Of a stretch of DNA of 64,000 nucleotides, positions 23,952 to 56,000 are shown one piece after another (the first letter of the stretch is position 1; each line of letters starts with the position of its first letter). The DNA is from Candidatus Omnitrophota bacterium (GTDB lineage: Bacteria > Omnitrophota > Gorgyraeia > 2-01-FULL-45-10): NCBI GenBank assembly GCA_023818895.1, contig JAMWCX010000001.1, positions 75,539 to 139,538 on the forward strand, written 5' to 3'. The notes under the pieces are model-generated. The model made no database searches. It saw only the letters and a program-made list of their open reading frames with translations, and was not told the DNA's origin. The position numbers and the translations under genes were made by a program.

Positions 23952-24287
23952 ATGCCGAATGAGAGAAAAGACGAATTTACTGCCAAAAAAGGGCGCCCCG
24001 TTAAACCCAGAATAGTCCATAAAGAGCCTCAAACCACACAATTCAGTCCAAGGGGCAGAATCGGAAGGCCCGGCTATAAGGAGCTTAAGTTTGAGGAGCT
24101 TGAAGCTATAAGGTTGTCTGATTATATGGGGCTGAAGCAGAAAGAAGCGGCTAGCCGTATGGGGATTAGCCAGCAGACATTTTCGCGGGTATTAAGGAAT
24201 GGTCGAAAACATCTTGCAGAAGCCCTTATAAACGGCGAAATTATAAAGGTCCAGGGTGGAGTCTTTAGAATTGAAAAATCGGCTTAA
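23952..24287 (+). CDS. UPF0251/DUF134 predicted DNA-binding protein with a sigma-70 region-4-like helix-turn-helix
   Basis: The segment ELKFEELEAIRLSDYMGLKQKEAASRMGISQQTFSRVLRNGRKHLAEALINGEIIKVQGG matches the DUF134 consensus (LEELEALRL.D.EGLSQEEAA.RMGVSRPTF.R.L..AR.K.A.AL..G.AI.I.G). Confidence 0.65.
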   Translation: MPNERKDEFTAKKGRPVKPRIVHKEPQTTQFSPRGRIGRPGYKELKFEELEAIRLSDYMGLKQKEAASRMGISQQTFSRVLRNGRKHLAEALINGEIIKVQGGVFRIEKSA

Positions 24288-24766
24288 ATTGGCGATATTT
24301 TTAATATTTTCGGCGACTCTAGCATTGACCATGGCAGGTTGCGCATCTATACCGATTCCGAGCCGGATTCCAATACCAAATGAGATACCAATCATTGGCG
24401 TATTGATCTAATCTAGAAGTTCACCTAAAAAAGCGCCTAAAACAATCCATAAAAACCATAAATAGCGGAGTATGATATATATGATTAAATGTCCTATAAT
24501 ATATCTTATGTTAACTATCTAATATGGAAATATAAATTGTAATATCTTGCACCCCAATATGTTACATGCATAATCTAATTTCCTGTTGATAAGTATATTT
24601 CTTTACGATTTTGGTTTTGTATTAGCTTTTACAAAACCATGGATGAGCGGTAATATTTTGGGTTGGATTATAAATCCTTATAGATATAATTACTGGCTGG
24701 TGTGTGGTGGTCGGGTATTACACAAGATTTTGCTGTGGCGGGCTTATAATGACGAATTTAGGGCAT

Positions 24767-25156
24767 TTAGCGGCGTTTCTTAGACTTTGTTTTGGCCGGT
24801 TTTTTTAACTTCTTTTGACACTCTATGGAGTCTATTGCGAACTCTTTTTGGTATATGATATTCAGGGACGGACTATGGCATTCCGGGCATATAAACGTCG
24901 GCCTTTCCACCATAAACCCTTTTTTGCAGGCCTCGCATTTGATCCCTAACTTAAGCGGACTAACGTATAGTTTTACGGTCGAAAAAGGAGTGTTTTTTGC
25001 CATGGTCCTGAACGTTTCTTCAAGGGTTTTTGGAGTTACATGGCTTACAGGGCTCAATGCGACGCGCACCGATTTTATCTTGATTGCTTTTCCGGACTTT
25101 TTCGATTTTTCTGTAAGCGCTGCCAGTATCTCCTGGCAGAACTTAAAATCATGCAT
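24767..25156 (-). CDS. HypA/HybF-like zinc-finger nickel metallochaperone homolog
   Basis: The N-terminus MHDFKFCQEILAAL matches the HypA MHELSL.Q start. There are paired CxxC motifs (CEACKKG...CPEC), followed by a Lys-rich tail. Confidence 0.55.
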   Translation of the reverse strand: MHDFKFCQEILAALTEKSKKSGKAIKIKSVRVALSPVSHVTPKTLEETFRTMAKNTPFSTVKLYVSPLKLGIKCEACKKGFMVERPTFICPECHSPSLNIIYQKEFAIDSIECQKKLKKPAKTKSKKRR

Positions 25157-25166
25157 TGCAATCTCC

Positions 25167-25559
25167 TTAAATACCTATTTTTTCGCGTAGTTCCTGGGGT
25201 AGTTTTATGGGCTTCAGGTCACGGTTAACGCATGCGCAGATGACCCTCGCGAACACCAGTATATCCTCTCCCCTTTTTATTTCCTGGAAGAAATGTATGG
25301 AGGCGTTTCCCATCATCTCAGGCCTGGTAAATACCCTTATTCCATCCCCATATCTGGCAGGCTTCTTATAGTCTATCTCAAGTCTTACCACCGGAAATAT
25401 TATGCCGTTTTTGGCATATTCAGCGGTGTCCAAGCCCAGATTCCGGAAGTACTCTGACCTGCCCTCCTCAAGATGCTTTAGGTAAGATGCGTAGTATACA
25501 ACTCCGCCTGCATCCGTGTCGTGGTAATATATTTTCTTTTCAATGTAAAAATCGCTCAT
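25167..25559 (-). CDS. Acyl-CoA thioesterase, 4HBT / YbgC-like hot-dog fold
   Basis: The motif YYHDTDAGGVVYYASYLKHLEEGRSEYFRNLGLD is typical of YbgC/4HBT thioesterases. Confidence 0.7.
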   Translation of the reverse strand: MSDFYIEKKIYYHDTDAGGVVYYASYLKHLEEGRSEYFRNLGLDTAEYAKNGIIFPVVRLEIDYKKPARYGDGIRVFTRPEMMGNASIHFFQEIKRGEDILVFARVICACVNRDLKPIKLPQELREKIGI

Positions 25560-26182
25560 ATTCTCAGGATGGTTTTTATTATTGTGGTAATGACATTTTG
25601 TATAGTTATTATAACAGGATCTAGTAGTCCTGTAAACAATAACCCAAGAAGTATGAGCATGCCATATGGCTCCAGCCTCGCGAGCGCGATCTGCGCTCTT
25701 GGCGGCAGGATCCCCATAAGAACCCTTGAGCCGTCCAGGGGCGGTATTGGTATCAGGTTGAGGCTTCCGAGAAGTATGTTTATTCGTGCCAGGACCACCA
25801 GGATAACGGCAATGAGCGGATTAGAACGGATTTGCGTGAATTGCAGTAGGGATATAGACATCGTGGCGATGGCTATATTTACTATGCAGCCCGCTAATGA
25901 TACAGAGACAAGCCCTATCCTGAAACTCCTTAAGTTAGAATAAGTTATTGGGACCGGCCTTGCCCATCCGAACCCCACAAGAAAAAGCGCGAGGGTTCCG
26001 ATCGGGTCAAGATGCTTGAAAGGGTTGAGCGAAAGCCTTCCTGAACGTCTGGCGGTATCGTCGCCAAACATATATGCTACCCAGCCGTGGGCTATTTCAT
26101 GGGCTATGACTGAGTATAAAATAGGTACTGATATTACTAAGAATAGAGCAGGATTTTTAAAAAGCAGCGAAGCGAGGCCCAT
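25556..26182 (-). CDS. Site-2 protease family (M50) membrane metalloprotease
   Basis: The HExxH motif lies in a transmembrane helix (VIAHEIAHGW), and the downstream LNPFKHLDP is an LDG-like motif. It overlaps the thioesterase start by 4 nt. Confidence 0.7.
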   Translation of the reverse strand: MGLASLLFKNPALFLVISVPILYSVIAHEIAHGWVAYMFGDDTARRSGRLSLNPFKHLDPIGTLALFLVGFGWARPVPITYSNLRSFRIGLVSVSLAGCIVNIAIATMSISLLQFTQIRSNPLIAVILVVLARINILLGSLNLIPIPPLDGSRVLMGILPPRAQIALARLEPYGMLILLGLLFTGLLDPVIITIQNVITTIIKTILRI

Positions 26183-28768: not shown

Positions 28769-30028
28769 GTGAAAAGGACATTAGCGCTTATACTCGGAGG
28801 TGGCCAAGGAAAAAGACTTTTTCCGCTTACGATGTACCGGTCTAAACCCGCGGTTCCGATAGGAGGAAAATACCGGCTTATAGATATACCGATCTCTAAC
28901 TGCCTGCATTCTGGGCTTAAAGACATATACGTTCTTACCCAATTCAACTCTGAATCTCTTAATAATCATATAAATAATACCTACCGATTCGATTATTTCT
29001 CGAGGGCTTTTGTCCGTATACTTGCTGCGGAACAGACATTGGATAACACTAACTGGTTTCAGGGGACGGCCGATGCGGTGAGAAAGAACATGATACACTT
29101 GGATCTCAAGGGAGACGAGGAGATATTGATACTTTCTGGCGACCATTTGTATAATATGGACTACCGTGAAATGGTATCATTCCATCGCAGGCATGAGGCG
29201 GATTTTACCGTTTCCGTTATCCCGATAAAGGTTCAAGAGGCCGCTGAGTTCGGAGTTCTTAGGATCAATGAAAGCTCAAGAATAACAGGTTTTAAGGAGA
29301 AACCCGCCACGCCTTCCGAGCTCAAAGGATTTACGATATCGGTAGACGATCTGGGAGTCGGCAGGCATCTCGGTAAAAACTGCTGCCTGGCGTCTATGGG
29401 GGTGTATCTTTTTAACGTCAAGGTGTTAATGAAGGCCCTTGAGGTGACAGGCGACGCAGATTTTGGCAAGGAAGTCATTCCCCACTCTATAAAGAAGTTC
29501 AAGGGGCTCGGTTTCCTTTATCACGGATACTGGAGAGATGTGGGAACGATAAGGTCTTATTACGATGTGAGTATGGATATAGCAAAGCACAAGCCGTATC
29601 TTTCATTTTTTCACGAAGGCTCTGTTTTTACAAGGCCGCGCTTTTTGCCGTCTCCCAGAATAGCCAAGTGCAGGATTGAGGATTCGATAATCGCCGAAGG
29701 CTCAGTGATCGAAGACGCCTATATCAAAGAGTCGATAATTGGGCTTAGGTCTATAATAGGACGTCGGTGTACGATTACCAGAAGTGTTATTATGGGGGCC
29801 GATTACTATGAAGATTTAGTTGCCCTTAAGGAAGATATGAGGGTTGGTATAGGTGACGATACTATTATTGAGAGGGCGATAATAGACAAAAATGCCAGGA
29901 TAGGAAGGAACGTTGTGATAAAGAATCTGAAGAGACTGAAAAACTTCGATGGCACCAATTACTACATAAGGGACGGCATCGTCATCATACCTAAGAACGC
30001 GGGAATAAAGAGCGGGACGAGGATATAG
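28769..30028 (+). CDS. glgC: Glucose-1-phosphate adenylyltransferase (ADP-glucose pyrophosphorylase); GTG start
   Basis: An N-terminal nucleotidyltransferase domain (LILGGGQGKRLFPLTMYRSKPAVPIGGKYRLIDIPISNC) and a C-terminal left-handed beta-helix. Confidence 0.85.
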   Translation: MKRTLALILGGGQGKRLFPLTMYRSKPAVPIGGKYRLIDIPISNCLHSGLKDIYVLTQFNSESLNNHINNTYRFDYFSRAFVRILAAEQTLDNTNWFQGTADAVRKNMIHLDLKGDEEILILSGDHLYNMDYREMVSFHRRHEADFTVSVIPIKVQEAAEFGVLRINESSRITGFKEKPATPSELKGFTISVDDLGVGRHLGKNCCLASMGVYLFNVKVLMKALEVTGDADFGKEVIPHSIKKFKGLGFLYHGYWRDVGTIRSYYDVSMDIAKHKPYLSFFHEGSVFTRPRFLPSPRIAKCRIEDSIIAEGSVIEDAYIKESIIGLRSIIGRRCTITRSVIMGADYYEDLVALKEDMRVGIGDDTIIERAIIDKNARIGRNVVIKNLKRLKNFDGTNYYIRDGIVIIPKNAGIKSGTRI

Positions 30029-33076: not shown

Positions 33077-33454
33077 CTACGCTTTTCTTAGCGGCGCAAG
33101 CGAAAGCATTATTTGGATAGCTTTTAGCATCTCGTTGAGGTCTATAGGCTTGGTGATATAATAGTCAGCCTGAAGATCGTACCCTTTAAGGATACTTGCG
33201 GGCTCAGTTAATGCGGTTAGTATTATTACCGGTACCCATTTTCGAGAGTCTCTTAGTTCCTTGAGAAATTGAAAACCGTCTTTGACGGGCATCTTTATGT
33301 CGCAAATGACGATATTGGGGGCCTCAGAATCGAATTTTTTAAGTCCTTCCTCACCGTTGGCGGCGGATATGACATTGTATCCACGCGGCGAAAGAAAATC
33401 TGTCAACATATCGCTTATCTCTTTTTCGTCATCTATTACAAGAATCTTCTCCAT
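33077..33454 (-). CDS. Stand-alone response-regulator receiver domain (CheY-like)
   Basis: 125 aa with the start MEKILVIDDE, a phospho-acceptor Asp in VICDIKMP, and a conserved Thr/Lys. Confidence 0.75.
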   Translation of the reverse strand: MEKILVIDDEKEISDMLTDFLSPRGYNVISAANGEEGLKKFDSEAPNIVICDIKMPVKDGFQFLKELRDSRKWVPVIILTALTEPASILKGYDLQADYYITKPIDLNEMLKAIQIMLSLAPLRKA

Positions 33455-33465
33455 GCAACTCCTCG

Positions 33466-34116
33466 CTATTTTGTCTTTCTGTAAAAGTCATTTATGGCGG
33501 CTACGACTTCCTGCGGCGAATCCACTACCTTGAATATCAAAAGATCTGACTTGTCTATCATCTTATGCGAAAGCAGTGTTTTCTTGAGCCATTCCAAGAG
33601 GCCTGCCCAAAATTCGCTTCCGAAAAGTATCACCGGCAACGGATCTATTCTTTTGGTTTGTACAAGCGTTATAACTTCAAAGAATTCATCGAGCGTCCCA
33701 TAGCCGCCGGGAAAGGCCACAAGAGCCATCGAGTATTTGGCAAACATAACCTTTCTGCAAAAGAAGTATTTGAACTCAATAAGTTTTGTGACGAACTTGT
33801 TCGGTTTTTGTATGGTCGGTATCATTATGTTAAGGCCTATCGATTCGCCGCCCCCCTTTTTAGCGCCCTTGTTTGCGGCCTCCATTATGCCGGCCCCGGC
33901 GCCTGTTATTATAGAGTATCCGTTTCTGGCCAACCTGTATGCTGTTTCCTCGGCGGCTTTGTAAGATTTGTCGGACGGTCTTGATCTTGCCGAACCAAAT
34001 ATAGAGACGGCCTCTTTGACGCTGGAGAGTTCCTCGAATCCATCGACGAACTCGCTCATGATACGGAATATCCGCCACGGGTCTTCTTTAGTAAAGTCAC
34101 CTTTAAGTCTGGTCAT
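33466..34116 (-). CDS. LOG-family protein (TIGR00730; cytokinin riboside 5'-monophosphate phosphoribohydrolase-like)
   Basis: Contains the LOG family motifs GSARSRPSD...ITGAGAGIMEAANKGA and PGGYGTLDE. Confidence 0.75.
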   Translation of the reverse strand: MTRLKGDFTKEDPWRIFRIMSEFVDGFEELSSVKEAVSIFGSARSRPSDKSYKAAEETAYRLARNGYSIITGAGAGIMEAANKGAKKGGGESIGLNIMIPTIQKPNKFVTKLIEFKYFFCRKVMFAKYSMALVAFPGGYGTLDEFFEVITLVQTKRIDPLPVILFGSEFWAGLLEWLKKTLLSHKMIDKSDLLIFKVVDSPQEVVAAINDFYRKTK

Positions 34117-34119
34117 TTA

Positions 34120-34641
34120 TCAATCCTTTAGTGTAACCAATAACTCTTTTTTAAACCCCCTGATCATCCTGTAGATAACAAAGTAACCAAGTCTTCCTAT
34201 CGGGTTGGTGAACTGGTCAAATAATATGTGCTGCGTTAGACCTATGGCAGCCGCTTTCCAGTAATCGGAAAGAGACAGAGCGAATATCGCCAGCCAAAGG
34301 ATCAGGACGAGTTCGTATGAATGCAAAATGACATATAGCTTTTTTATGCGTATTTCCTCGCAAGCGTTGTATATATATTTTATGCGTATCGTGAAAGGAT
34401 GGCTGGTGTAATAATCGATGAAATGGTCGGCGTCTACAAGGACGCCTGCCGCCAAGGAGATGGCGGCACAGCCGATGGATTTGAAGTAAATCCCGACCGC
34501 AATGCTTATGATGCCCGATGCGGCGATATGTGCTAGAGGTTTCAAGAGGGTATTTTCCTTTATCCCTGGAGGTTTATTATGGAATCGAAAGTGCCGAACG
34601 AATTTTGCTCTCTTTCGGCGTTCTGAGAGTCGAGAACCCAT
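34120..34641 (-). CDS. YdjM/DUF457-like membrane-bound metal-dependent hydrolase. The start is uncertain: the 5' end overlaps the parA-like gene in another frame.
   Basis: A hydrophobic protein with LAHIAASGII...VLVDADHFIDYY, resembling the His/Asp motifs of DUF457. Confidence 0.35.
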   Translation of the reverse strand: MGSRLSERRKRAKFVRHFRFHNKPPGIKENTLLKPLAHIAASGIISIAVGIYFKSIGCAAISLAAGVLVDADHFIDYYTSHPFTIRIKYIYNACEEIRIKKLYVILHSYELVLILWLAIFALSLSDYWKAAAIGLTQHILFDQFTNPIGRLGYFVIYRMIRGFKKELLVTLKD

Positions 34642-35693
34642 TCGCCGTCAACAACGAATTTATATTTATACCTACCGGGCGCAAGAGTAAACCTTTTTTC
34701 CCATTTTCCGTTTTCGAGCCTCGAAAGGCGGCTTTCATCGTTTATCTTCCAGTGGTTAAACTCGCCTACCACAAATATATTCTTTGCGTTAGGCGCATCT
34801 ATATTGAAGGAGACCTCTCTTAAAATAGGGCTTGCCGGATCCATTGTCGAGCGAGGAGCATTGAGTGTTTGGGATACGGATTCTGTGCTTGATTGGGCTT
34901 GGCTTAAGGCCTGTTCGAACTCCAGCGCACCGTCCGCCCTCAATAATTCCCGCGCGAGGGCCAGATAGTCTTCGGCGCCTATCGAATCTTTATTGAAGCT
35001 GACAACACAGACGCCTTTTGCCGCTGCCTTCTTAAGATCTACGTTAAGTCTGATTATCGTGGAGAGCATCTGATTTCTGAAGAAAGTGCTTATTTCATCA
35101 TACATTGCCTGGGAGTATTTTGTCCTTTTATCGAACAACGTGGCAAGCGCGTTGACCTGAGGGGCGTGGTTTATTTTTATTTTGATTAGCTCAAGCATCC
35201 CCAGAAGCTTCCCAACGCCCATAAGCGAAAACGCGCTCATGTCTATGGGGACTAATATTTGATCGGCGGCTCTAAGGGCATTGAACGTCAGGAAGCCGAG
35301 GCTGGGAGGACAGTCGATAACTATATACTGGTAAGCCAGCTGGCTTGAGGCGAGCACCTGGTGGAGTTTCGATACGGCGTCCTCTTTGTCCTTGAGTTCC
35401 TGCTCGAGCGTGCTCAGCAGTATGTTTGAAGCAACGATGTCAAGATTATCGGATACCTTGACTATGCATTCGTTTATCGTTCTGGTCTTTTCAGGATTCT
35501 CAGTAAGGATATTGTAGGTGGAACGGTCCATGCTCTGGTTGGTTACTCCGAGGCCGAAGCTTGCATGGGCTTGGGGATCGAGGTCTATTATTAGAGTCTT
35601 TTTGCCTAAGCTGGCGAGAGCCCCTGCCAGGTTTATGGTTGTGGTGGTCTTGCCGCAACCACCCTTTTGATTAGCTACAGCTATTTTTTTCAT
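34560..35693 (-). CDS. ParA/MinD-family P-loop ATPase fused to a C-terminal CBM48/AMPK-beta-type glycogen-binding domain. The start is taken at MKKIAVANQKGG.
   Basis: A deviant Walker A (KGGCGKTT) with ParA-like sequence across the first ~250 aa. The C-terminus (FNIDAPNAKNIFVVGEFNHWKI...LAPGRYKYKFVVDGEWVLD) matches the AMPK-beta glycogen-binding / CBM48 consensus. Confidence 0.75.
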   Translation of the reverse strand: MKKIAVANQKGGCGKTTTTINLAGALASLGKKTLIIDLDPQAHASFGLGVTNQSMDRSTYNILTENPEKTRTINECIVKVSDNLDIVASNILLSTLEQELKDKEDAVSKLHQVLASSQLAYQYIVIDCPPSLGFLTFNALRAADQILVPIDMSAFSLMGVGKLLGMLELIKIKINHAPQVNALATLFDKRTKYSQAMYDEISTFFRNQMLSTIIRLNVDLKKAAAKGVCVVSFNKDSIGAEDYLALARELLRADGALEFEQALSQAQSSTESVSQTLNAPRSTMDPASPILREVSFNIDAPNAKNIFVVGEFNHWKINDESRLSRLENGKWEKRFTLAPGRYKYKFVVDGEWVLDSQNAEREQNSFGTFDSIINLQG

Positions 35694-35740
35694 GACCCCT
35701 CCTTTTCTCCAGTTAAAAATATATACCATCAAACACTATT

Positions 35741-47085: not shown

Positions 47086-50000
47086 TTATGCGAATTCCTG
47101 TACCTTGTAGAGCCGCCTGAGGTTCTCGTAGACGGGGATCCTCTCTGCCTTGGGCAGGAAGATGAAGACGTTGCGGCAGTCCTTTAGGGCCTCGGCCCTC
47201 ACAGCTGGGTTGTCGAGAGCGTCTTCTGCAGCCAAAACGTCTTTTAGGCCTAGCTTCAATGCCATCGCGAGCATTTCCGTGAGGTACATATAGCAGCTCT
47301 CGTCCAGCCCGCTTGCGTCGACGCCGGCGAGAAATGCCTTTTCGTCATTGCGCAAGTATTCAAATTCCCGCGAGATGACGGTGTCGCGAGATGCGAGAAC
47401 GACTACCCGCGCCGCAGGGGTAATCTCTCTTGCCTTTGCTATTTCTGATAGTAGATCTTTGTCTTCGCGGTCAATGAATGTTATGCCGCGGTCATTACAG
47501 AAATTGCGGATCATGATTATGTGCTGATTAAGGTCGGCATATTGTGGTCCGTTTCCACGCATATAGCCTTTTATCCAGCTTGTGCCGAGAGCTAGTATTA
47601 CAGGCTCTTTCTGGTTCGCGGCGCGGATGAGCTTGACGATATCGGAGAACTTTACCGCTTCTATACGCGCAAGTTCCGCTCTCGGCTGTTCGTCTGGGCT
47701 GTAGCCTGACGTATCACTGGGTTGTAAAAAAGATCCTGTCTTGTTCTCATCTTCTGTCAGGATAGTTTTCGAATCACTAATTTTTGCGTTTACTTCAGAG
47801 GCCGCTTGCAGGTGCCAGAGCTTGGTTTTTCTTCCGTCGATTTCGGCATTAACCTTAACCCATATACCCCGGAACGGGTAAAGATAATTCTGCTTAAGAT
47901 TGCTGTTGGGAATTGGTGTTCGGAGCTTACCCGTATATCTATCTTCCAACTCCTCAACGGTAGATGCGTAAAAATATTCGAAACCCGCTTTTTGGGCCAA
48001 TCTGACAATATGCATTATAGCCCCTCTATTCCACTCGTAAAATCTTTGGCGTATTTCAAGAGGTTGGATGTTGCGGAATCCCAGGCTTGGCTGGACGTCA
48101 TATATGAGTAGGGCGGGTTTTTTGTTGTGTTCAGTTATCCGCAGGCGTATTACGCCGAAAAGGCCGCTGGAAGGCACATAGTCGTCAGATGCCATCATGT
48201 CGAGCGTGGCAAGTTCGGGATAGGCCTTTTTGGTATCTTCCGTAGGTTCGATCGCGAATTCCTGCGGGATTTCATCGTATTCGATATACGCGCCAACCTT
48301 TTGCCCTTTGACAGTCCATGTGAAGTAAGGATCCTTTTCCAGTAGTTCCAGTAGTCTGGCGAACTCCGCTGATTTCCGCAGAGAATTACCCGTCTTAGGC
48401 AATAGTAAATGTTGTGTGCCGGCATCGTAGTGGGGCGGCGCGAAAGAGCGAAATAAATTCTCAAGAGACTCATCATCGATGGATGTCAGTTTCTTGTTGA
48501 CAAGGCCGAAGAGCACCTGGGGCATTGTAACAATCTTTGAAAAATGCCTCTCCAAGGCATATAGCGCTCCGCCGAGACATCCTGAGTCCGGTTCGGGAGA
48601 TTTTAATATTTCACCGTTCGCAAGATAGCGCACCTCTTCTCCGCCGAAAGGCGCCAGCGACGTAACGCCGAGTTTTTTCATAGTGGCTATGACAGGTTGC
48701 CAGCGCCTCTGGTCATATATACTGTCTGGCAGCGCTGCCTCCGTTGCCGGAATACCCCACCGCGGAACACTTGGTATATCGACGATTATAGCGCTCGTCG
48801 ATATATTCTTTAAAACATTGTAATTGCCGCCCAGTATGAATACCACGCCTTTTTCGGCCGATATGGTTTTTCTTAAGTTTGACAGGTATATTTCCGCCTC
48901 TTTCTGATTTGCCATAACGATATCGTTTTTTTCACTGGCAGTAAAAATCTGCCCCGGATGCACCAAAAATGAAACCCGTCCACCTTGCTGCTTAATGGCC
49001 TTGCGTATAGCATCGGCGTGTTTGTCGATGTCCGCCCATTGGATAATGCGAGCCTCGGCCATCTGATACTTACTTACGATCTGATCGGCGCGCGCAAGAT
49101 AGCCGGTTGACCGTAGGTAATCCAGGCCGCGACTATGGTCCGACTCGGGTATCCTGTCGGTCCATTCATAGTCTTCCTCTTCACCATCATAGGGAACAAG
49201 ATCGATCTCTCCCCATTTGACTGTGTGGACCAGATAATGGAATGGGATATTTTCGTTTTTTCTGTACATACCAACAAGATATGCCTCATATCCAAGCTTA
49301 TTTAATATATATGTGAGCATGGCTGAGTTGGCTAGACATGATTTCAAATCCATCGACTTGACTGCGTTTTTGATCTCGTTTATGATGTCATTGCTGTTGT
49401 CTGTGTTAAGTCCATCTCTGGAACCTGAAGACGTATTTGATATTTCAGATACATATGTGGTCAGAGATAGGGTGGATATATTATCATCCCTATCCCTTGC
49501 TCCATCTTTTATAGCGCTGCTTATCTTCCCGCGGATTCTCACCTCATTGGAATCTTTGAGGATGGGCTCTAATTCGGAGATATCCTTTATGGCTATCCAA
49601 TTTTGGTGTTTATCATCGCCGGCTTTTTCATAGCTTATTTCTACGGATTCGAATATGCCGGCCCTGGCGCATCTAAGGAAAAATGCGGCATGTGTCTCAT
49701 CAGGTATGCCATAATATTCGATAAATCTATTTGGGCCGGCCTGCGATGCAAGCCATCTTACTACCTCGACACCCAATCCCCGCCGCGTATCTTTCTTGTC
49801 AAATATGCGCAGGTTCTTAAATAGCGTTGTCTCGCCATTCACGTAAAACGCGTATAATGTGCCAACAAGCTTTTCGTTCTCTTCGAGAAAATACCACGAT
49901 CTGTCAAAAGCTCGCAGCCTCAACCTCTTCTCCTCGGATATCTCTACATCTTCTTCTGGAAGCGTTGTCAGGGGAGCGCGATCAGTCTCTTCTGTCCATA

Positions 50001-53000
50001 TGCGGAAACATCTTTTCAATGCCTTTATTATTTCTCTAGCCCCTTCCCTCTCTCCTAGGTACTGTGTTAGGCGTGGAATGCCCGGTGTATTCATGGAGAG
50101 CCATTCGAGCTGCATTACTATTTCAGCTATAATTTGGTTATTCATTTGGTAAAGCGGGTCATCTTCGTGCTGGAGAGAGTCGAATATCCGGTTGGCTATC
50201 ACTTTGATAAGGCCGGGGTTTTGTTCACACGCCCTAACAAGGCCGTTTGTTATAAGCGCGTGATTGACGCAGCAAGGCATATAATGAGTATCATGAGCTA
50301 GGTTGACGATGACTTCAAGCGCGGTGCATATAGCTTCTTTTTGGCTTTCAGTGTTTAGTGAGGCGAGATACGCAGCCAATTCGCTATAACTGCGCTCGGC
50401 CATTTGTTTAATGTCGTTACGGGAAAGCGCGTCCCGCGTGCCTTCGGTATGGTCCATGCCTCCCAAAAGCGGGTGCTCATCGTCGCGCTTAAGTTTCTCT
50501 TCGTAAGAAAGCCAGGTAGTGGCAGAGGTTATTTCCTTGATTTTTTGCCCTTCCTGCCAGTGTTCGATTATCCCGTCCCGTCGCATAGTGGCGAATATGG
50601 GATTGGGTGCGCCGTGGATGTTCGCCGTCCTCCCTTTTTCGTACAATATTACGACATCCGCCTCTTTGCCGGAGGTTTGCTCTCTTACGCCGATCCTTCC
50701 CTCATCAAGATATGACACCAGATCTTGCGGTAGATCACAGGCCGTTATCTTGCCGTTCGAAACCTTTATCCTCCCAATATGTTTGCCATCCTGTGTAAAT
50801 GGATCAAAATCGGCCTTCATCACAGCATATTCGACAGAGTCCGAATTTTCCACCTCCGGCTTCTTATCGCCGGTTTGTTTTATGAGCTTTCTTGCGATAT
50901 GGACAAGTGCCGGATTAACGATGCCTGATATTCCGGAGTGGGACGCACCGTTCCTCCAGGCCGATTTGATGAGCCAGTTCAATACCGTCTCGCCTATTCC
51001 CTTGCCCCTGTCATTTACCCGGATCGTTGTTATGACATTCGTGCCCTTGTAATAATTGACCAGCCCAGCCTTCCTGCCGTCGGCTACAATCTCATATAAC
51101 TTGATAGGGCCTCCTCGATGAGATGGTATTTTGATTTTTATGTCCATAGCGCCTGTCTTTATATTCCGCAGTTTGATGACATTCCACAGGATACCGTAAT
51201 GATACTCTTCCCATATTGTTCCAAAAGCATCTGTTACGGTTCTTATTCGGCCATTTTTATCCTTTTCAATATACTCAAATGGCGCATGACCGTTATTTTG
51301 CCTCGCCACCCATTCAGGTGCTGCCATGTCATCTGGTATGCCTGGACCATCTCCTTCGCCTGACGGCGGATAATCATATGCCTGTATTTTTTTATCGGCT
51401 TTTAAGCCATCAAAATAAGCCAGTCTAGAGGCGATGGCTTTCTCTATTTTCTCTTTGTCCTCGGTCAGCTTGTATTCGAGGATCATTTGGAGTTCCTTAT
51501 CCATATCCATGTCACGAGGGGCTGTCTTTCTTATCTCATCGCGAAGATCCGCAAGCGTCTGGGCATCTTCGGGCCTTGCCAGGCCAATGTATTCTATAAG
51601 TAAATAGGTGTCTTTTTCGTGTATCGTCTCATCGAAGATCCTGACCGGTGTAAGATAGTTTTCTGTTAATACCGCAATTCGGCTTTTATAGGCATCAGAA
51701 GGAACTGTCGATATTTTCGACAGGCGTATCCATATTTTAGCAAGGGCTTCCATCGTGGCGAGCACATCCTCGCTTTTTTCTAATTTACCGATGTTAGATG
51801 TTATGACCTGCTCCATCTTGACAAGTTGTATCTCGGACGCCTTATCAATGTTTCGTATAAAGTTTGTAATCGAAAGCATGATATGTTGCTGTATTTCGGG
51901 TGAGAAGTTTTTGGCGCCATGGCCATCGTCAGCGGGCACGTCCCCTACAGAGAGGCTGTTGTGGTCCATGCCGCCAAGATACCAGTGCTCCTCATCCCGC
52001 TTTAGCATCTCATCACGGGTCAGATTTAAAAGACCGGTCTCTTCGGTCTTCCTGGCCAATATTATGTCAAGCTGCTGAGTCAGGTCAAACCTGCCTATAT
52101 ACTCTTTTGTCCTGTGTTCTATGCCGTAAAAGGCTCGAGTTCTCCTGATAGATGAGGTCACAAAGTCCGATTTTTCATCCGCTCTCATCTTCTTCCAGTT
52201 TTCCGTGGCCTCTTTGCTGTAATAGTCGGGATTAAAGGCTATATACAAAATCCCGCCTCTTTTCAGTGTCTTGGCCGCTGCTGAAATGAGCGCCTCCGGG
52301 TCTTTAACATAAGCCATGCCGGAGGTGATTATCACGGCGTCAAAATGGTTTTCCCACTCGGCGGGAAACTCCGGATTTGCGTTTAGGTCCTGCACGATGC
52401 GTTGGGTAAGTTTCGCGTTGACATTAAGCTCGTCCCTGTTGAGCCCTATTCCGATGATCTCCGACGCGTTTACGGATTGCGGCACATATGTAAAAGCGCC
52501 GCTCATGAGATCAAGGACCCTTGCCCCTCGTGGCAGGTAGTCTTTGAGATAGTCTTCTATGTATGTGGTGGCCGCATCTTCCAGATAGGGTATCGCGCTT
52601 TGCGTGTCAATTAAACTGAAAGATGATTTAACATAATGGAGGATAAGGCTGGTCCTCGTGCCTATTGCCGGCACATTTTCCATATGGAAATTTTCGGCCC
52701 CCAGACAGTGTTCTATAGTCTTGAGGCCGGCGCCCCCTCCCCATAGTCCCGCGTGAAATGCCTTCGTTCTAGATTCTGTGTTATCGTTTCTTGAGGCGGT
52801 ATCGTAGATGTCTACGGTGGTATTTTTTGCCAAAGAATCTATTTTTATGTCGAGGAAGATCGGCTTGCTGAAATCGGCTCTGTTGCCGTGTGAAAACGCG
52901 TTTTTGATGGCCTCCGCGATTGGTGTCATGCTTTTGCCATCGGTGAACGCGTCATCGAGTTTTCCGGAGAGCTTCATGATGGCATCATAAAGATCATCAT

Positions 53001-56000
53001 AAGCGGATTCTTTTTCGGCGAGATAAGCCAGATTCAAAGCCACTGCGTTACCGTTTTTAATGGCCTCGATAATTTTATCCACATTTCCTATGTTTATGTC
53101 AATGACGTTCTTGCCCGTAACACTTTTTACGGAAGCGGCGGTAAAACTGCCAGATATAGATGATGACGGCTCGGCATCTCTTATTCCTGACCAGCCAGTG
53201 GGCTTTGCTTCCTGGGGCCTTTCGAGATCGCGGGCTATGGCGGGATCGGTGGTCTGTTGGGCCGCTGAATCCTGCTTTGTTGCTGAAGGCCTGAGCTCAA
53301 GGTTGCCGTTTTTCCTTACGATGAGGAGCTTGTCCCGACCGGCGGCGCCTATAGCCGCAAGCATTCTTGTCGGTATCATCAAGCGATTGCCCTTCTGGAG
53401 GTTTGCTATAAATTCGCTGTTCGATCCTATGACCGTAAGCATTTCGTTATTTTTGGTATCTGTAATAGACTTGCCGAGCAATGGTTTTATTTTCTGTAAG
53501 AATTGACCGGCGGGATAGACAATGATGCATCTATCGTAACTTTTGCAGAAAAGATAAAAAGGTGCCTTGAATTGTGAGGCGAGGCGGGCGGGTATGGCAA
53601 CTCTGTTATTACTGTCGATAGTTACTTCTGCCAGAATTTCATCCTGGTTATCGTTAAGTTGCGCCTTATCGTTCTCAATGGAGTTTTTCTTGTCTTTATG
53701 TGATAAGTCGGTGTTTTGGTTTTTGGAAGAAGCATTATTTATTATCACCCCGAGTATCGAAACTAAAACCAGCCATTTTGTCGATACTGGCATCGTTCTT
53801 GATGCTGCGCTGGTGTGTCGGTAGGGTTTCTCTGGTTGTCTGAGCTCAGGCGGATCTTCTGCTTGGACAGGATAGAGTAGTTGGCCGTTATGGATCATGA
53901 GTCTGCTGCCATGGGAATTGTTTGCTTTTATGAGCATAACGTTTTCTATCATTCCAAGGTTTTGCAGAGCGCGGTAAATATTTTTTACGGTTCTTAGCCA
54001 ATGGGGACTGAAGATGCCGCTGTTATCCTCTAAGGCATAGCTCCCTTCAAGAATATATATCCTTAATCCCATTTTCTCGGTAAAGTTTGCAGCGATAGAA
54101 TCTTGTATTTCCTGTATAGTGCAAGCTGGCGTGAAATGGGCAAGATAGTGTTTTCCGTTTTGAGGATCGTCTATTGCTAAACCAGCGCATGTGCCGACGT
54201 TGTCGATGTATAAAGGGATATCGCGGGAGTTGATTTTGTAGCTCATCATCGGAACATATACCGCATTCGTGGTGACGTGGCATATCTCCATTGCTTCTGC
54301 TCTTCTCGAGAGGTCTTCCGATAAATTCCTGACCTCTATCGGCGTTATGGCGTAGTAGCGACAGTCCTTCATGGTATCGAGCAGGCCGAATGGTAGTAGT
54401 ATCGCTATGGCGAGTATGATGCCGCTCGCAAAGGCGGCTGGCAACTTCAGCCATTTCAGATGTTGTGCGCGCTTATCACGCTCTCCCCTCTTTTTCTCAT
54501 ACGGCGTGGTTTCATTTTCTCCCTGCACAAAGAAATGGATGAGTTCGTTTTTTGTTCTGTGATGCCTAAATCCCGATATCGGCTCCTTGAATAGCCTGAA
54601 GCCCTCATGCCCCTGAAGTATGAATATGCCGCCGGTTTTTATCTCTTTGAGTTTATCCACGAGTGCATATTCGACATCGTCCGGAGCACCGCCCATAAAG
54701 TAGTAGACAGCATCATACCTACCCAGATCTTCTTTGAGAAAATCCCCCTGCTTTATAGTGACGCTGCCCGGTTTGATGAGCCCTTCTTTTATAAGTTCAT
54801 CAAGCATCTCTTTGGCATATGAGACCTTAGACGGGTCCCACTCGACCATCGTGACCCTGAACCCGAAGACCGACGCCATGAAAAACCCGAAGCTTCCTAG
54901 GCCGCCCCCGAGATCTACTATATGTGCGCCTTCTTTGAGGCCCCATTCCCGCACCGTCGGTCCAACTATGTATTCACTCGAATCCATGAATATGCCGAAC
55001 GCGTTTTTCGGATCCCTGGAGACATACGGATGTTTCTGTCTGTAGTGTTCCTTGAAATCTATGAATGCCCTCATCCTCAAATATTGGGCGCGGCTCAGGT
55101 TCTCCTTTATGCTGTTTATATACTTTTCTCTGAATAGTTCTTCTCTTCTTATTCGGAGCTTTTCGTAGGGTATCGTGCCATCGAGTTCGGCTGAGATATT
55201 AAGGGCGTGATGAGCCCATGACGTGAGGGCAAAGAAAGCCACACTTTGAGGCATGCTCATGAATATCGGTGTGGCCATAACAACAGCATTTAGTAAAGCG
55301 ATAACCGTTATTTTATACCAGGGCGGCGCCTGCGGCATATGCTTGGCCCTGAAATAATGCGAGGCAACGAAAAGCGACCATGTTATGGCCGATGCCCAAA
55401 GACTTCCGGTGATTGGTGTCAAAATAATGGCTAATTCCCAGAATAACGCCTGCTCTATGAAAACCTGGGACCAGCTCTTTATCTTTTGTGGCATTGGGAA
55501 GGATTCGTCTATCTTGTCGATGAGCCAGGCCAATAGCGGTATCTGTCCCCATGCCTCTCCCTCACTAAAATAGTCGGTTTTTGCCTCATCTACATGTGAT
55601 ATAATATTGTCAATATCTTCGTGCAATCCTTTCAGATATGAGCATTTACCGAAATGCTTAACGAACCATTCTATTGTTTGAACAGGTTCGTAAATGGCAA
55701 GATGATTATCGAGAGTGATACCGTCTCGAAGGATTTTCCTGATAGCATCTGATGCTGCCTTAGACTGAGCCAGTTCTTCTAAAAGTTTTGAACGTGTCTC
55801 GCCCTTAAAGAGCTCTAAGATAACAGTTTCTGCCTGCCGGAATGTTGTTGGATTGAATCGTTGGACGAATGCTGTGAGCATTTGTTCCAGCCGAGCGCGG
55901 TTGAACTCATTTTTAGGTGGTGCCTTTTCATAGGCGTATATCTCTGATAAGAGAAACTCAAAATTGGCATTCATAACATCAGTTTGAAACCTGCTTGCAT

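What the first reader, a model, noticed from the sequence alone, without database searches (positions are those of the whole stretch)
34560..35693. ParA-type ATPase fused to a CBM48/AMPK-beta glycogen-binding domain: candidate glycogen-granule positioning system
ParA/MinD ATPases position cargo such as plasmids, carboxysomes (McdA), chemoreceptor arrays and PHB granules by nucleoid-ratcheting, and normally rely on a separate adaptor protein. Here the ATPase carries a C-terminal carbohydrate-binding module of the glycogen-binding type (FVVGEFNHWKI...LAPGRYKYKFVVDGEWVLD). The ATPase could therefore bind alpha-glucan granules directly. glgC lies 4.5 kb away on the opposite strand. No parB-like partner is adjacent.
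Basis: partly seen in the sequence, partly recalled or inferred. Interest (0 to 1): 0.7.

Follow-up and report, generated by a model that had tools for sequence, protein, structure and literature searches.

The report
ParA ATPase fused to glycogen-binding module
A bacterial cargo-positioning ATPase here carries its own glycogen-binding domain, a real and widespread architecture with no description found in the literature, which suggests an unknown way for cells to organise or inherit glycogen stores, though that function is inferred, not shown.

Summary
Window 34560..35693 (-) encodes a 377-aa protein with three parts: an intact ParA/MinD ATPase, a disordered linker, and a C-terminal AMPK-beta-type CBM48. 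Both domains pass Pfam's curated cut-offs. The CBM model superposes on AMPK glycogen-binding domains at 1.2-1.7 A.

It is not a frameshift artefact. The fusion is a single ORF in all 120 closest database clusters, all Omnitrophota where named. It also makes up 133 of the 150 best 50%-identity representatives, and occurs in Planctomycetota, Gammaproteobacteria and Syntrophales. The glucan-contact residues (W315, K/R345, W352) are almost invariant.

The glycogen-granule positioning reading is plausible but unproven, for four reasons:
- The window's clade replaces the canonical Soj DNA-binding Arg with Asp.
- No activator partner lies in the 64 kb.
- glgC linkage is limited to one housekeeping syntenic block.
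- In other phyla the same ParA subfamily sits in a MerR-ParA-X-Y module, which also exists with a CBM-less ParA.

Best reading (about 0.45): an ATP-gated bridge between glycogen particles and the nucleoid. No paper describing it was found. Verdict: new variant of a known kind, interest about 0.6.

The parts
34560..35693 (-). Complete gene (377 codons + TAA) for the ParA-linker-CBM48 fusion protein
   Evidence: ORF list and translation. Identical protein P0001 is in NCBI as 'AAA family ATPase [Candidatus Omnitrophica bacterium]'.
35698..35704 (-). Shine-Dalgarno AAGGAGG, 4 nt upstream of the ATG at 35693
   Evidence: Read directly from the sequence. Supports the ATG start rather than the TTG at 35732.
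34908..35693 (-). ParA/MinD-type ATPase domain (residues 1-262), Soj-like
   Evidence: Pfam AAA_31 E 5.5e-51. PDB sequence hits: 8RAY ParA E 6e-46, Tth Soj E 2e-35. Foldseek gives target-normalised TM 0.81-0.83 to ParA-ATP and Soj.
35643..35672 (-). Deviant Walker A, N8-Q-K10-G-G-C13-G-K15-T-T17, with signature Lys10 and family-specific Cys13
   Evidence: Invariant in 31 clade members. K10, G11, G12 and K15 are present in 147/147 and C13 in 140/147 family sequences that cover the motif.
35304..35327 (-). Walker B region Y-I-V-I-D127-C-P-P
   Evidence: D127 in 152/152 ungapped sequences and P130 in 151. D127, C128, P129 and P130 are invariant in A1.
35028..35051 (-). R215-L-N-V-D219-L-K221-K222: helix carrying the position equivalent to the Soj nsDNA-binding Arg, here Asp, with Lys at 222
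   Evidence: Alignment to Tth Soj 'PRNVRLAEAP'. Position 219 is R/K in 115/154 of the wider family but never in the window's clade, where 222 is always basic.
34821..34907 (-). Flexible S/T/Q/A/P-rich linker (residues 263-291)
   Evidence: AF2 pLDDT is below 50 for residues 269-286. The region is hypervariable in length and sequence in A1. Linker length is 0-360 aa, median 46, across 133 representatives.
34563..34820 (-). C-terminal AMPK-beta-type CBM48 (residues 292-377) with W315, K345, W352, F366 and D370 at the glucan-contact positions
   Evidence: PF16561 44.7 bits and PF02922 27 bits, both above cut-off. Aligns to AMPK beta1/beta2 CBMs. AF2 pLDDT 90; Foldseek 1Z0M rmsd 1.4-1.5 A, target TM 0.9. 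W315 154/154, K/R345 150/154, W352 151/154.
28769..30028 (+). glgC (ADP-glucose pyrophosphorylase). This is context only, not shown to be functionally linked.
   Evidence: Pfam NTP_transferase + LbH_GLGC. It is syntenic with the fusion only in the window's clade: L001, L086, L087, L088.

Best explanation
The gene encodes an orphan ParA/MinD-type ATPase. It belongs to a distinct, widespread subfamily with the Walker A signature KGGCGKT. Through a flexible linker it carries its own cargo receptor, an AMPK-beta-type CBM48 with an intact alpha-glucan binding site.

Most likely mechanism: the ATP-bound ParA dimer binds a cellular matrix, ancestrally the nucleoid. Its two tethered CBMs bind glycogen particles. 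The protein then acts as an ATP-gated bridge that holds and spreads glycogen over the nucleoid, so that each daughter cell inherits some. ATP hydrolysis releases the bridge.

In lineages with the downstream X/Y genes, an activator may turn this into a true Brownian-ratchet positioning system. In the window's lineage no activator is adjacent, so it may work as a simple dynamic tether.

Shown: the domain architecture, the catalytic motifs, the CBM fold, conservation of the ligand-contact residues, and conservation of the fusion.

Inferred: glycogen binding, DNA or matrix binding, and any positioning activity.
For: - Both domains pass curated Pfam cut-offs.
- The ParA catalytic motifs are invariant: K10, K15, D37, D39, D127. 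The ParA half superposes on ATP-bound ParA and Soj.
- The CBM model (pLDDT 90) matches the AMPK beta1/beta2 glycogen-binding domains at 1.2-1.7 A. It also matches the SEX4 starch-phosphatase CBM48.
- The positions aligned to the AMPK glucan-contact residues are under strong constraint across 154 diverse members: W315 154/154, K/R345 150/154, W352 151/154, N/D370 139/154.
- The linker is free to vary from 0 to 360 aa, as expected for a tether between two functional ends.
- The fusion is kept in 133 of the top 150 50%-identity representatives and in at least four phyla.
- Most family members keep the Soj-type basic residue at position 219.
- In a rough NJ tree the ParA domains separate from all canonical ParAs taken from the loci. 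This argues for a dedicated non-chromosomal role.
- The protein has no detected signal peptide or membrane domain, so a cytoplasmic glucan is the accessible ligand. Omnitrophota MAGs are reported to encode glycogen synthesis (PMC8542988).
- glgC lies 4.5 kb away in a block conserved within the clade.
Against: - In the window's clade the Soj R189-equivalent is never basic (D219 here), so nucleoid binding is not assured. Lys at 222 may or may not compensate.
- No ParB-, McdB- or X-like partner lies in the 64-kb window. A ratchet needs an ATPase activator on the cargo.
- glgC linkage is one inherited synteny block of housekeeping genes. No glg genes flank the fusion in Gammaproteobacteria, Planctomycetota or divergent Omnitrophota.
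- A Nitrospirae homologue in the same MerR-ParA-X-Y module has no CBM, so the CBM may not define the subfamily's core cargo.
- A relative is fused to bactofilin instead, which points to scaffold anchoring rather than cargo carrying.
- Whether this genome also has canonical ParAB could not be checked.
- Bacterial glycogen particles are small and numerous and may not need active partition (general knowledge).
Confidence: 0.45

Rival explanations
1. Glycogen serves as the landmark rather than the cargo. The CBM anchors or sequesters the ParA on glycogen deposits, for example at the poles. From there the ATPase positions something else, either the chromosome/ParB complex or the X/Y-defined cargo. 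This would be analogous to ParA retention by PopZ, TipN or bactofilin-PadC scaffolds.
For: A close ParA relative (P0265) carries an N-terminal bactofilin domain in place of the CBM. The ParA domain is most similar to chromosomal Soj-type ParAs. In the window's clade the gene is 1.6-2.6 kb upstream of mnmG (gidA), a classic neighbour of chromosomal parA. A CBM-less member exists in the same gene module.
Against: In the NJ tree the subfamily separates from all canonical ParAs taken from the loci. Gammaproteobacteria that carry it are expected to have ordinary parAB as well (inference, not tested). No parB or parS-like partner was found in the window. The gene order differs from gidA-gidB-parA-parB.
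Confidence: 0.2
2. The CBM48-like domain does not bind storage glycogen. It mediates protein-protein contacts or binds another glycan. The ATPase would then be part of an uncharacterised MerR-ParA-X-Y (or membrane beta-sandwich partner) system whose cargo is unrelated to glycogen.
For: The MerR-ParA-X-Y module is conserved in five gammaproteobacterial loci and one Nitrospirae locus, the latter without a CBM. Membrane-anchored beta-sandwich proteins recur immediately upstream in Omnitrophota. No glg genes occur in most neighbourhoods. AMPK-beta CBMs are also known to make protein contacts in the ADaM site (general knowledge).
Against: The residues aligned to the AMPK glucan-contact residues are the most conserved positions of the domain across 154 sequences. 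That is hard to explain if sugar binding were lost. The best structural matches are glucan-binding CBM48s crystallised with cyclodextrins.
Confidence: 0.15
3. It is a metabolic sensor or regulator. Glycogen occupancy of the CBM would modulate the ParA ATPase or dimer state. That would couple carbon-store status to DNA-related processes such as replication initiation or transcription, as Soj does with DnaA. This is conceptually like glycogen sensing by AMPK.
For: The closest structural relatives of the CBM are the AMPK-beta sensors. A MerR-type regulator is the conserved first gene of the module in other phyla. A stand-alone receiver domain and a LOG-family gene follow the fusion in the window's clade.
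Against: The long hypervariable linker (0-360 aa) argues against tight allosteric coupling between the two domains. There is no evidence for a regulatory target. The receiver gene is missing in L087 and L088.
Confidence: 0.1
4. Assembly or frameshift artefact joining a parA gene to a separate CBM gene.
For: None found.
Against: The single ORF has an identical NCBI entry. The fusion is a single ORF in 12 independently assembled loci from several phyla, in all 120 nearest clusters and in 133/150 representatives. The CBM-only 'proteins' found are fragments on very short contigs.
Confidence: 0.01

Closest known systems
Chromosomal ParA/Soj (Thermus thermophilus Soj 1WCV/2BEK, Helicobacter pylori Soj 6IUB, ParA-ATP 8RAY)
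   Same: Same fold and size of ATPase domain. Same deviant Walker A with signature Lys, Walker A' and Walker B. 31-36% identity in the Foldseek structural alignments, with target TM 0.76-0.83. Most of the fusion family keeps the basic residue at the Soj nsDNA-binding position.
   Different: Carries a C-terminal linker plus CBM48. Has Cys instead of Val in Walker A. Forms a separate group from canonical ParAs in the tree. No adjacent parB. In the window's clade the DNA-binding Arg is Asp.
McdA/McdB carboxysome positioning (and other orphan ParA cargo systems such as ParC/ParP, PomZ, PpfA)
   Same: An orphan ParA-type ATPase presumably dedicated to a non-chromosomal, cytoplasmic cargo. McdA structures are detectable relatives (6NON).
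   Different: Those systems use a separate adaptor or activator protein bound to the cargo. Here the cargo-binding module is part of the ATPase itself. No activator gene is adjacent in the window.
AMPK beta-subunit carbohydrate-binding module; plant SEX4/LSF/PTST CBM48; yeast Atg45 glycogen receptor
   Same: Same CBM48 beta-sandwich, with rmsd 1.2-1.7 A to 1Z0M, 4YEF and 4YEE. Conserved Trp/Lys/Trp glucan-contact residues. In PTST, SEX4 and Atg45 the module targets a partner activity to glucan particles (Atg45: PMC11145338; PTST and SEX4 from general knowledge).
   Different: The partner activity here is a ParA ATPase. No description of that combination was found in the searched literature.
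PhaM-type tethering of PHB granules to the nucleoid (Ralstonia eutropha; from memory)
   Same: The proposed logic is the same: one protein bridges a storage granule and DNA so that granules are distributed to daughter cells.
   Different: PhaM is not an ATPase and is not related in sequence. The cargo is a polyester, not a polysaccharide.
Bactofilin-PadC-ParA scaffold of Myxococcus xanthus (from memory)
   Same: A ParA held on a cytoplasmic scaffold. A member of this very ParA subfamily is directly fused to a bactofilin domain (P0265).
   Different: The scaffold there is a protein polymer and the link is through an adaptor. Here the presumed scaffold or cargo is a glucan.

Membership tests
ParA/MinD (deviant Walker A) ATPases | Deviant Walker A KGGxxGK[ST] with N-terminal signature lysine | tested here: met
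   N8-Q-K10-G-G-C-G-K15-T-T17. K10 and K15 are invariant in every family sequence covering the motif.
ParA/MinD (deviant Walker A) ATPases | Walker A' / switch Asp residues and Walker B Asp | tested here: met
   D37, D39 and D127 are conserved in every ungapped family sequence.
ParA/MinD (deviant Walker A) ATPases | ParA/Soj three-dimensional fold | tested here: met
   AF2 model versus 8RAY, 2BEK, 1WCV and 6IUB: probability 1.00, target TM 0.76-0.83. The ParA half has only moderate pLDDT.
ParA/MinD (deviant Walker A) ATPases | ATP-dependent dimerisation and ATPase activity | not testable with these tools
   Needs biochemistry. No multimer prediction was available.
Nucleoid-ratchet ParA systems (ParABS, McdAB) | Basic residue for nonspecific DNA binding at the Soj R189-equivalent position | tested here: not met
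   D219 in the window, and never R/K in 121 clade members. Lys is present at 222 instead. Position 219 is R/K in 115/154 of the wider family. Loss of DNA binding is therefore possible but not proven.
Nucleoid-ratchet ParA systems (ParABS, McdAB) | Cognate ATPase-activating partner (ParB/McdB-like) encoded next to the ATPase | tested here: not met
   No ParB model matched the 10 neighbours scanned, and no GERR motif occurs in window ORFs. No X, Y, MerR or upstream-protein homologue occurs in the window. Candidate partners exist in other lineages.
Chromosomal ParA (Soj) orthologue | Groups with canonical ParAs; gidA-gidB-parA-parB arrangement with parS | tested here: not met
   The NJ tree separates fusion-type ParAs from the canonical ParAs taken from the loci. 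mnmG is nearby, but the order is parA...mnmG, with no rsmG or parB. The tree is rough (NJ, no support values).
CBM48 / AMPK-beta glycogen-binding module | Match to PF16561 / PF02922 above the gathering score | tested here: met
   44.7 bits (cut-off 26.8) and 27.0 bits (cut-off 22.4).
CBM48 / AMPK-beta glycogen-binding module | Beta-sandwich fold superposable on solved CBM48s | tested here: met
   CBM-only AF2 model, pLDDT 90. 1Z0M, 4YEF and 4YEE match at rmsd 1.4-1.7 A with target TM 0.85-0.91. SEX4 3NME also matches.
CBM48 / AMPK-beta glycogen-binding module | Glucan-contact residues (AMPK beta1 W100, K126, W133, L146, N150; numbering from memory) | tested here: met
   Aligned residues are W315, K345, W352, F366 and D370. 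Family conservation: W 154/154, K/R 150/154, W 151/154, N/D 139/154.
CBM48 / AMPK-beta glycogen-binding module | Measured binding to glycogen, amylopectin or cyclodextrin | not testable with these tools
   Requires purified protein.

The most novel reading that the evidence does not exclude
This is the first recognised machinery for spatial organisation or inheritance of glycogen in bacteria, and the first ParA/MinD ATPase with a built-in cargo receptor. It would be a one-polypeptide, ATP-gated bridge between a polysaccharide storage particle and the nucleoid. It would belong to a widespread, uncharacterised MerR-ParA-X-Y partition-like system found in Omnitrophota, Planctomycetota, Gammaproteobacteria, Nitrospirota and Desulfobacterota.
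Probability: 0.35. Interest if true: 0.8.

Novelty: new variant of a known kind. Interest (0 to 1): 0.62.

Why it matters
ParA/MinD ATPases are the general solution bacteria use to place chromosomes, plasmids, carboxysomes, chemoreceptor arrays and division sites. In every studied case the cargo is recognised by a separate adaptor.

A large, conserved subfamily that is covalently joined to a glucan-binding module would add a polysaccharide store to the cargo list. It would also show a different design, with the receptor built into the motor.

How bacterial glycogen is distributed and inherited is essentially unstudied. This family gives a concrete, testable handle: one domain to pull down glycogen, two Trp residues to mutate, and one gene to delete.

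The accompanying MerR/X/Y genes in Gammaproteobacteria offer a route to a tractable host. They also offer a candidate new ParA-activator family.

Tried and rejected
1. Frameshift or assembly artefact: rejected, because the fusion is conserved.
2. Longer TTG start at 35732: rejected, given the SD plus ATG at 35693 and the homologue N-termini.
3. Apparent 82-nt overlap with the downstream ORF: resolved. The homologue in L003 and a TTG at 34545 indicate a shorter downstream gene with no overlap.
4. CBM-only search of the word-indexed protein database: returned only 12 fragments from short contigs and was uninformative about other architectures.
5. Searches of the window and all Omnitrophota loci for MerR, X, Y and the upstream membrane protein with profile HMMs: nothing found, even at E <= 1.
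6. The idea that X is a degenerate ParA/MinD fold: hhalign against the ParA alignment was not significant.
7. X-like status of the ORFs downstream of the fusion in L009 and L071: only marginal (E 0.0045 at 8% probability; E 1e-4 at 54% probability).
8. Homology between the two upstream membrane-protein families: marginal (E 1e-3, probability 21%).
9. glg-gene linkage outside the window's clade: none found by Pfam-annotated contexts or by tblastn with GlgC. No further glycogen genes appear among the 28 window ORFs scanned against Pfam.
10. Literature searches for any prior description: nothing relevant. The library lacks most subscription journals, so absence is not proof.
Full report
**1. Observation**

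The minus strand of the window carries one open reading frame from 35693 to 34560, encoding 377 codons plus TAA. An AAGGAGG Shine-Dalgarno lies 4 nt upstream of the ATG. All homologues start at the same MKKIA...

Pfam finds a ParA/MinD P-loop domain: AAA_31 over residues 1-176 (E 5.5e-51), plus CbiA, MipZ and ParA. It also finds, at the C-terminus, AMPK1_CBM (PF16561, residues 302-374, 44.7 bits against a cut-off of 26.8) and CBM_48 (PF02922, 27.0 bits against a cut-off of 22.4). NCBIfam gives only sub-threshold hits to ParA partition models and to the N-terminal CBM48 region of GlgB.

**2. Not an artefact: a large family**

The identical protein is deposited in NCBI as 'AAA family ATPase [Candidatus Omnitrophica bacterium]' on a 732-kb contig. 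The 120 nearest 90%-identity clusters (58-83% identity, 99-100% coverage) all carry both domains.

An exhaustive phmmer search of 1.84 billion 50%-identity representatives was also run. With my own domain HMMs, 133 of the best 150 representatives (32-66% identity) have the ParA domain followed by exactly one C-terminal CBM. The linker is 0-360 residues long, median 46.

A scan of GTDB species genomes recovered single-ORF fusions on contigs labelled Omnitrophota, Planctomycetia, Phycisphaeraceae, Thiogranum and another gammaproteobacterium. A second homologue search, seeded with the Thiogranum protein, showed a large gammaproteobacterial branch. One cluster contains a Syntrophales protein.

In a rough neighbour-joining tree of ParA domains, the canonical ParAs taken from the non-fusion loci form one clade apart from the fusion-type ParAs. 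The tree has no support values.

**3. Residue-level anatomy**

*ParA half.* The deviant Walker A (N-Q-K10-G-G-C13-G-K15-T-T), D37/D39 and the Walker B D127 are invariant. Cys13 is a family signature, present in 140 of 147 sequences covering it, where Soj has Val.

The best solved relatives are chromosomal-type ParAs: 8RAY (E 6e-46), T. thermophilus Soj and H. pylori Soj. The AF2 model (mean pLDDT 76.6) superposes on them with target TM 0.76-0.83.

Soj reads 'PRNVRLAEAP' at the site of the Arg known from Soj studies to be needed for nonspecific DNA binding (from memory: B. subtilis Soj R189). The window protein reads 'RLNVDLKKAA'. Across 154 diverse members, position 219 is R or K in 115 and position 222 is Glu in 132. 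In all 121 members of the window's clade, position 219 is never basic and position 222 is always basic. This looks like a relocation of the charge by one helical turn. Whether DNA binding survives cannot be decided here.

*Linker.* Residues 263-291 are S/T/Q/A/P-rich and are predicted to be disordered. The region is hypervariable.

*CBM half.* The domain aligns to the AMPK beta1/beta2 CBMs, a type II pullulanase CBM48 and GlgB. A CBM-only AF2 model (pLDDT 90) matches 1Z0M, 4YEF and 4YEE, which are AMPK CBMs, some solved with cyclodextrins, at 1.2-1.7 A. It also matches the plant starch phosphatase SEX4.

The residues aligned to the AMPK glucan contacts are W315, K345, W352, F366 and D370. The AMPK equivalents, numbered from memory, are W100, K126, W133, L146 and N150. 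These are the most conserved positions of the domain: W315 154/154, K/R345 150/154, W352 151/154, N/D370 139/154. Sugar binding is therefore very probably retained.

**4. Context in the window and its clade**

All neighbours are on the same strand: carA, carB, purF, guaA, purL and purQ upstream. Downstream come a small polytopic membrane ORF (weak YdjM hit), a LOG-family gene, a stand-alone receiver domain, mnmG (gidA) and a radical-SAM gene. Beyond those, glgC and phosphate-uptake genes are convergent.

This order is kept in four relatives at 64-69% identity: L001, L086, L087 and L088. The LOG, receiver and membrane genes come and go. glgC proximity is thus real, but it is one inherited block of housekeeping genes.

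None of the 28 window ORFs scanned against Pfam is another glycogen gene or matches a ParB model, and no window ORF carries a GERR motif. Published MAG analyses report glycogen synthesis in most Omnitrophota lineages examined (PMC8542988), so the ligand is plausible in this phylum.

**5. Context elsewhere changes the picture**

In five gammaproteobacterial loci (L010, L012, L083, L084, L085) the fusion is the second gene of a conserved module. The module is a MerR-family protein of about 150-160 aa, the ParA-CBM fusion, a Pfam-less protein X of about 230-260 aa, and a Pfam-less protein Y of about 190-200 aa. Y is missing in L084.

A Nitrospirae locus (L011) has the same MerR-ParA-X-Y order with a ParA of this subfamily (KGGCGKT) that has no CBM. 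Profiles built only from Gammaproteobacteria hit its MerR at E 2.5e-50, its Y at E 8e-8 and its X at E 1.4e-3.

The X N-termini share a short motif: RLARISARFLSD, RLAEISHHFLSE and SLDDISHFFLS. The ORF downstream of the fusion in L009 begins RKLKRGLADLSKFF. This recalls the ParB N-terminal peptide that activates ParA, but that is a resemblance from memory and was not tested. X-like status of the ORFs downstream of the fusion in L009 and L071 is only marginal.

In other Omnitrophota a single-pass membrane protein with a C-terminal beta-sandwich sits directly upstream of the fusion. It gives sub-threshold CBM30 and CIA30 hits. One family occurs in L003, L004 and L087, a second in L005-L007, and the relation between the two is marginal.

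None of MerR, X, Y or this membrane protein is present in the window. One relative of the ParA subfamily carries an N-terminal bactofilin domain instead of a CBM.

**6. Mechanism**

*Shown:* an intact ParA-type ATPase; a flexible tether; a CBM48 with a conserved glucan-binding site; strong conservation of the combination across phyla.

*Inferred:* ATP-bound dimers bind a matrix. Ancestrally this would be the nucleoid, since most members keep the Soj-type basic residue. The two CBMs bind glycogen particles. The protein would then bridge glycogen to the nucleoid in an ATP-gated manner, spreading the store and promoting its inheritance.

Where X and Y are present they may supply the ATPase-activating and cargo-side functions needed for a true ratchet. 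In the window's lineage the protein may be a simple dynamic tether, or its partner may be encoded elsewhere. I put this reading at about 0.45.

**7. Rivals**

- Glycogen is an anchor or landmark for a ParA that positions something else (0.2). The bactofilin-fused relative, the Soj-like ATPase and the mnmG neighbourhood support this. The tree, and the expected coexistence with canonical ParAB in Gammaproteobacteria, argue against it.
- The CBM-like domain does not bind storage glycogen, and the system's cargo is defined by X/Y or the membrane partner (0.15). The CBM-less Nitrospirae module supports this. The near-invariance of the glucan-contact residues argues against it.
- The protein is a glycogen-status sensor or regulator (0.1). 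The hypervariable linker weakens this.
- Artefact (below 0.01).

**8. Comparison with what is known, and novelty**

By motifs and fold the ATPase is a member of the ParA/MinD family. It fails two features of the nucleoid-ratchet systems as tested in this window: the Soj-type Arg and an adjacent activator. It does not group with canonical chromosomal ParAs.

By HMM, fold and contact residues the C-terminal domain is a member of the CBM48/AMPK-beta family.

Functionally the nearest analogues are McdAB (an orphan ParA with a cytoplasmic cargo, but a separate adaptor) and PhaM (a granule-to-nucleoid tether that is not an ATPase; from memory). Others are the CBM-based glucan-targeting proteins PTST, SEX4 and yeast Atg45 (Atg45: PMC11145338).

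Ten searches of the held literature found no description of a ParA-CBM48 protein or of any glycogen-positioning ATPase. One further search was rejected for syntax. The library omits most subscription journals.

Database entries call these proteins 'AAA family ATPase' or 'chromosome partitioning protein'. I rate this a new variant of a known kind.

**9. Verdict**

- Interest is 0.62. The architecture is solid and widespread, and it makes an unstudied question, how bacteria organise glycogen, directly testable.
- The function is not demonstrated. The window's own copy lacks both the hallmark DNA-binding residue and any visible partner.

Noticed in passing
L010 5146..8095; L012 9380..12735; L083 9446..12423; L084 9464..11830; L085 9409..12566; L011 9415..12413: A conserved four-gene module: MerR-family protein, ParA of the KGGCGKT subfamily, a Pfam-less protein X (with N-terminal RLxxISxxFLS-like motif) and a Pfam-less protein Y (with conserved acidic C-terminal ...EExxFF motif). 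The ParA has a CBM48 in Gammaproteobacteria and none in the Nitrospirae locus L011. The system appears uncharacterised, and X/Y are candidate ParA partners.
   Followed up: partly
L003 9256..9996; L004 1461..2336; L087 9287..9997; L005 6532..7104; L006 369..944; L007 9408..9980: A single-pass membrane protein with a C-terminal beta-sandwich lies 3-30 nt upstream of the fusion gene in several Omnitrophota and 'Planctomycetia' loci. It gives sub-threshold CBM30/CIA30 hits. It has a conserved N-terminal cytoplasmic motif, D(H/Q)LAxxY(L/F). It is absent from the window.
   Followed up: partly
window 34120..34545 (-): A small polytopic membrane ORF lies directly downstream of the fusion, with a likely TTG start at 34545 and a weak sub-threshold YdjM hit. 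A 46%-identical homologue lies two genes downstream of the fusion in the distant Omnitrophota locus L003 (11785..12222).
   Followed up: partly
window 33077..34116 (-): A LOG-family (Lysine_decarbox/SLOG) gene and a stand-alone 125-aa response-regulator receiver follow the fusion. One or both recur in the same position in L001 and L086, while L087 has LOG only and L088 has neither.
   Followed up: partly
window 47086..57621 (-): A giant 3,511-aa ORF with an N-terminal hydrophobic segment and two methyltransferase-like regions (around residues 880-1000 and 1690-1820). It is otherwise unannotated. Giant genes have been reported in Omnitrophota (bioRxiv 10.1101/2023.11.21.568195, seen).
   Followed up: partly
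window ~24000..26000: Gene orientation switches from the + strand (1-24 kb) to the - strand (24-64 kb), so the genes converge. GC and AT skew change sign at the same place. This could be a replication-terminus-like point or just coding-strand bias.
   Followed up: no
P0134 (WP_305767917.1, Candidatus Epulopiscium viviparus), P0143, P0216 (Candidatus Lindowbacteria), P0246, P0269: These proteins are built from 6-18 tandem copies of the same AMPK-beta-type CBM. The largest has 1,812 aa and 18 copies, in the giant bacterium Epulopiscium. They may be multivalent glycogen binders or scaffolds.
   Followed up: partly
P0265 (468 aa, metagenomic): A member of the same ParA subfamily with an N-terminal bactofilin domain (PF04519, E 1.9e-17) and no CBM. 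This would be a direct ParA-cytoskeleton fusion.
   Followed up: no
L087 and L088 (both GCA_041643025.1): One MAG carries two fusion loci (P0065 and P0100) on different contigs with the same pur-...-mnmG-glgC synteny. This is probably a mixed bin of two related populations rather than a duplication.
   Followed up: no
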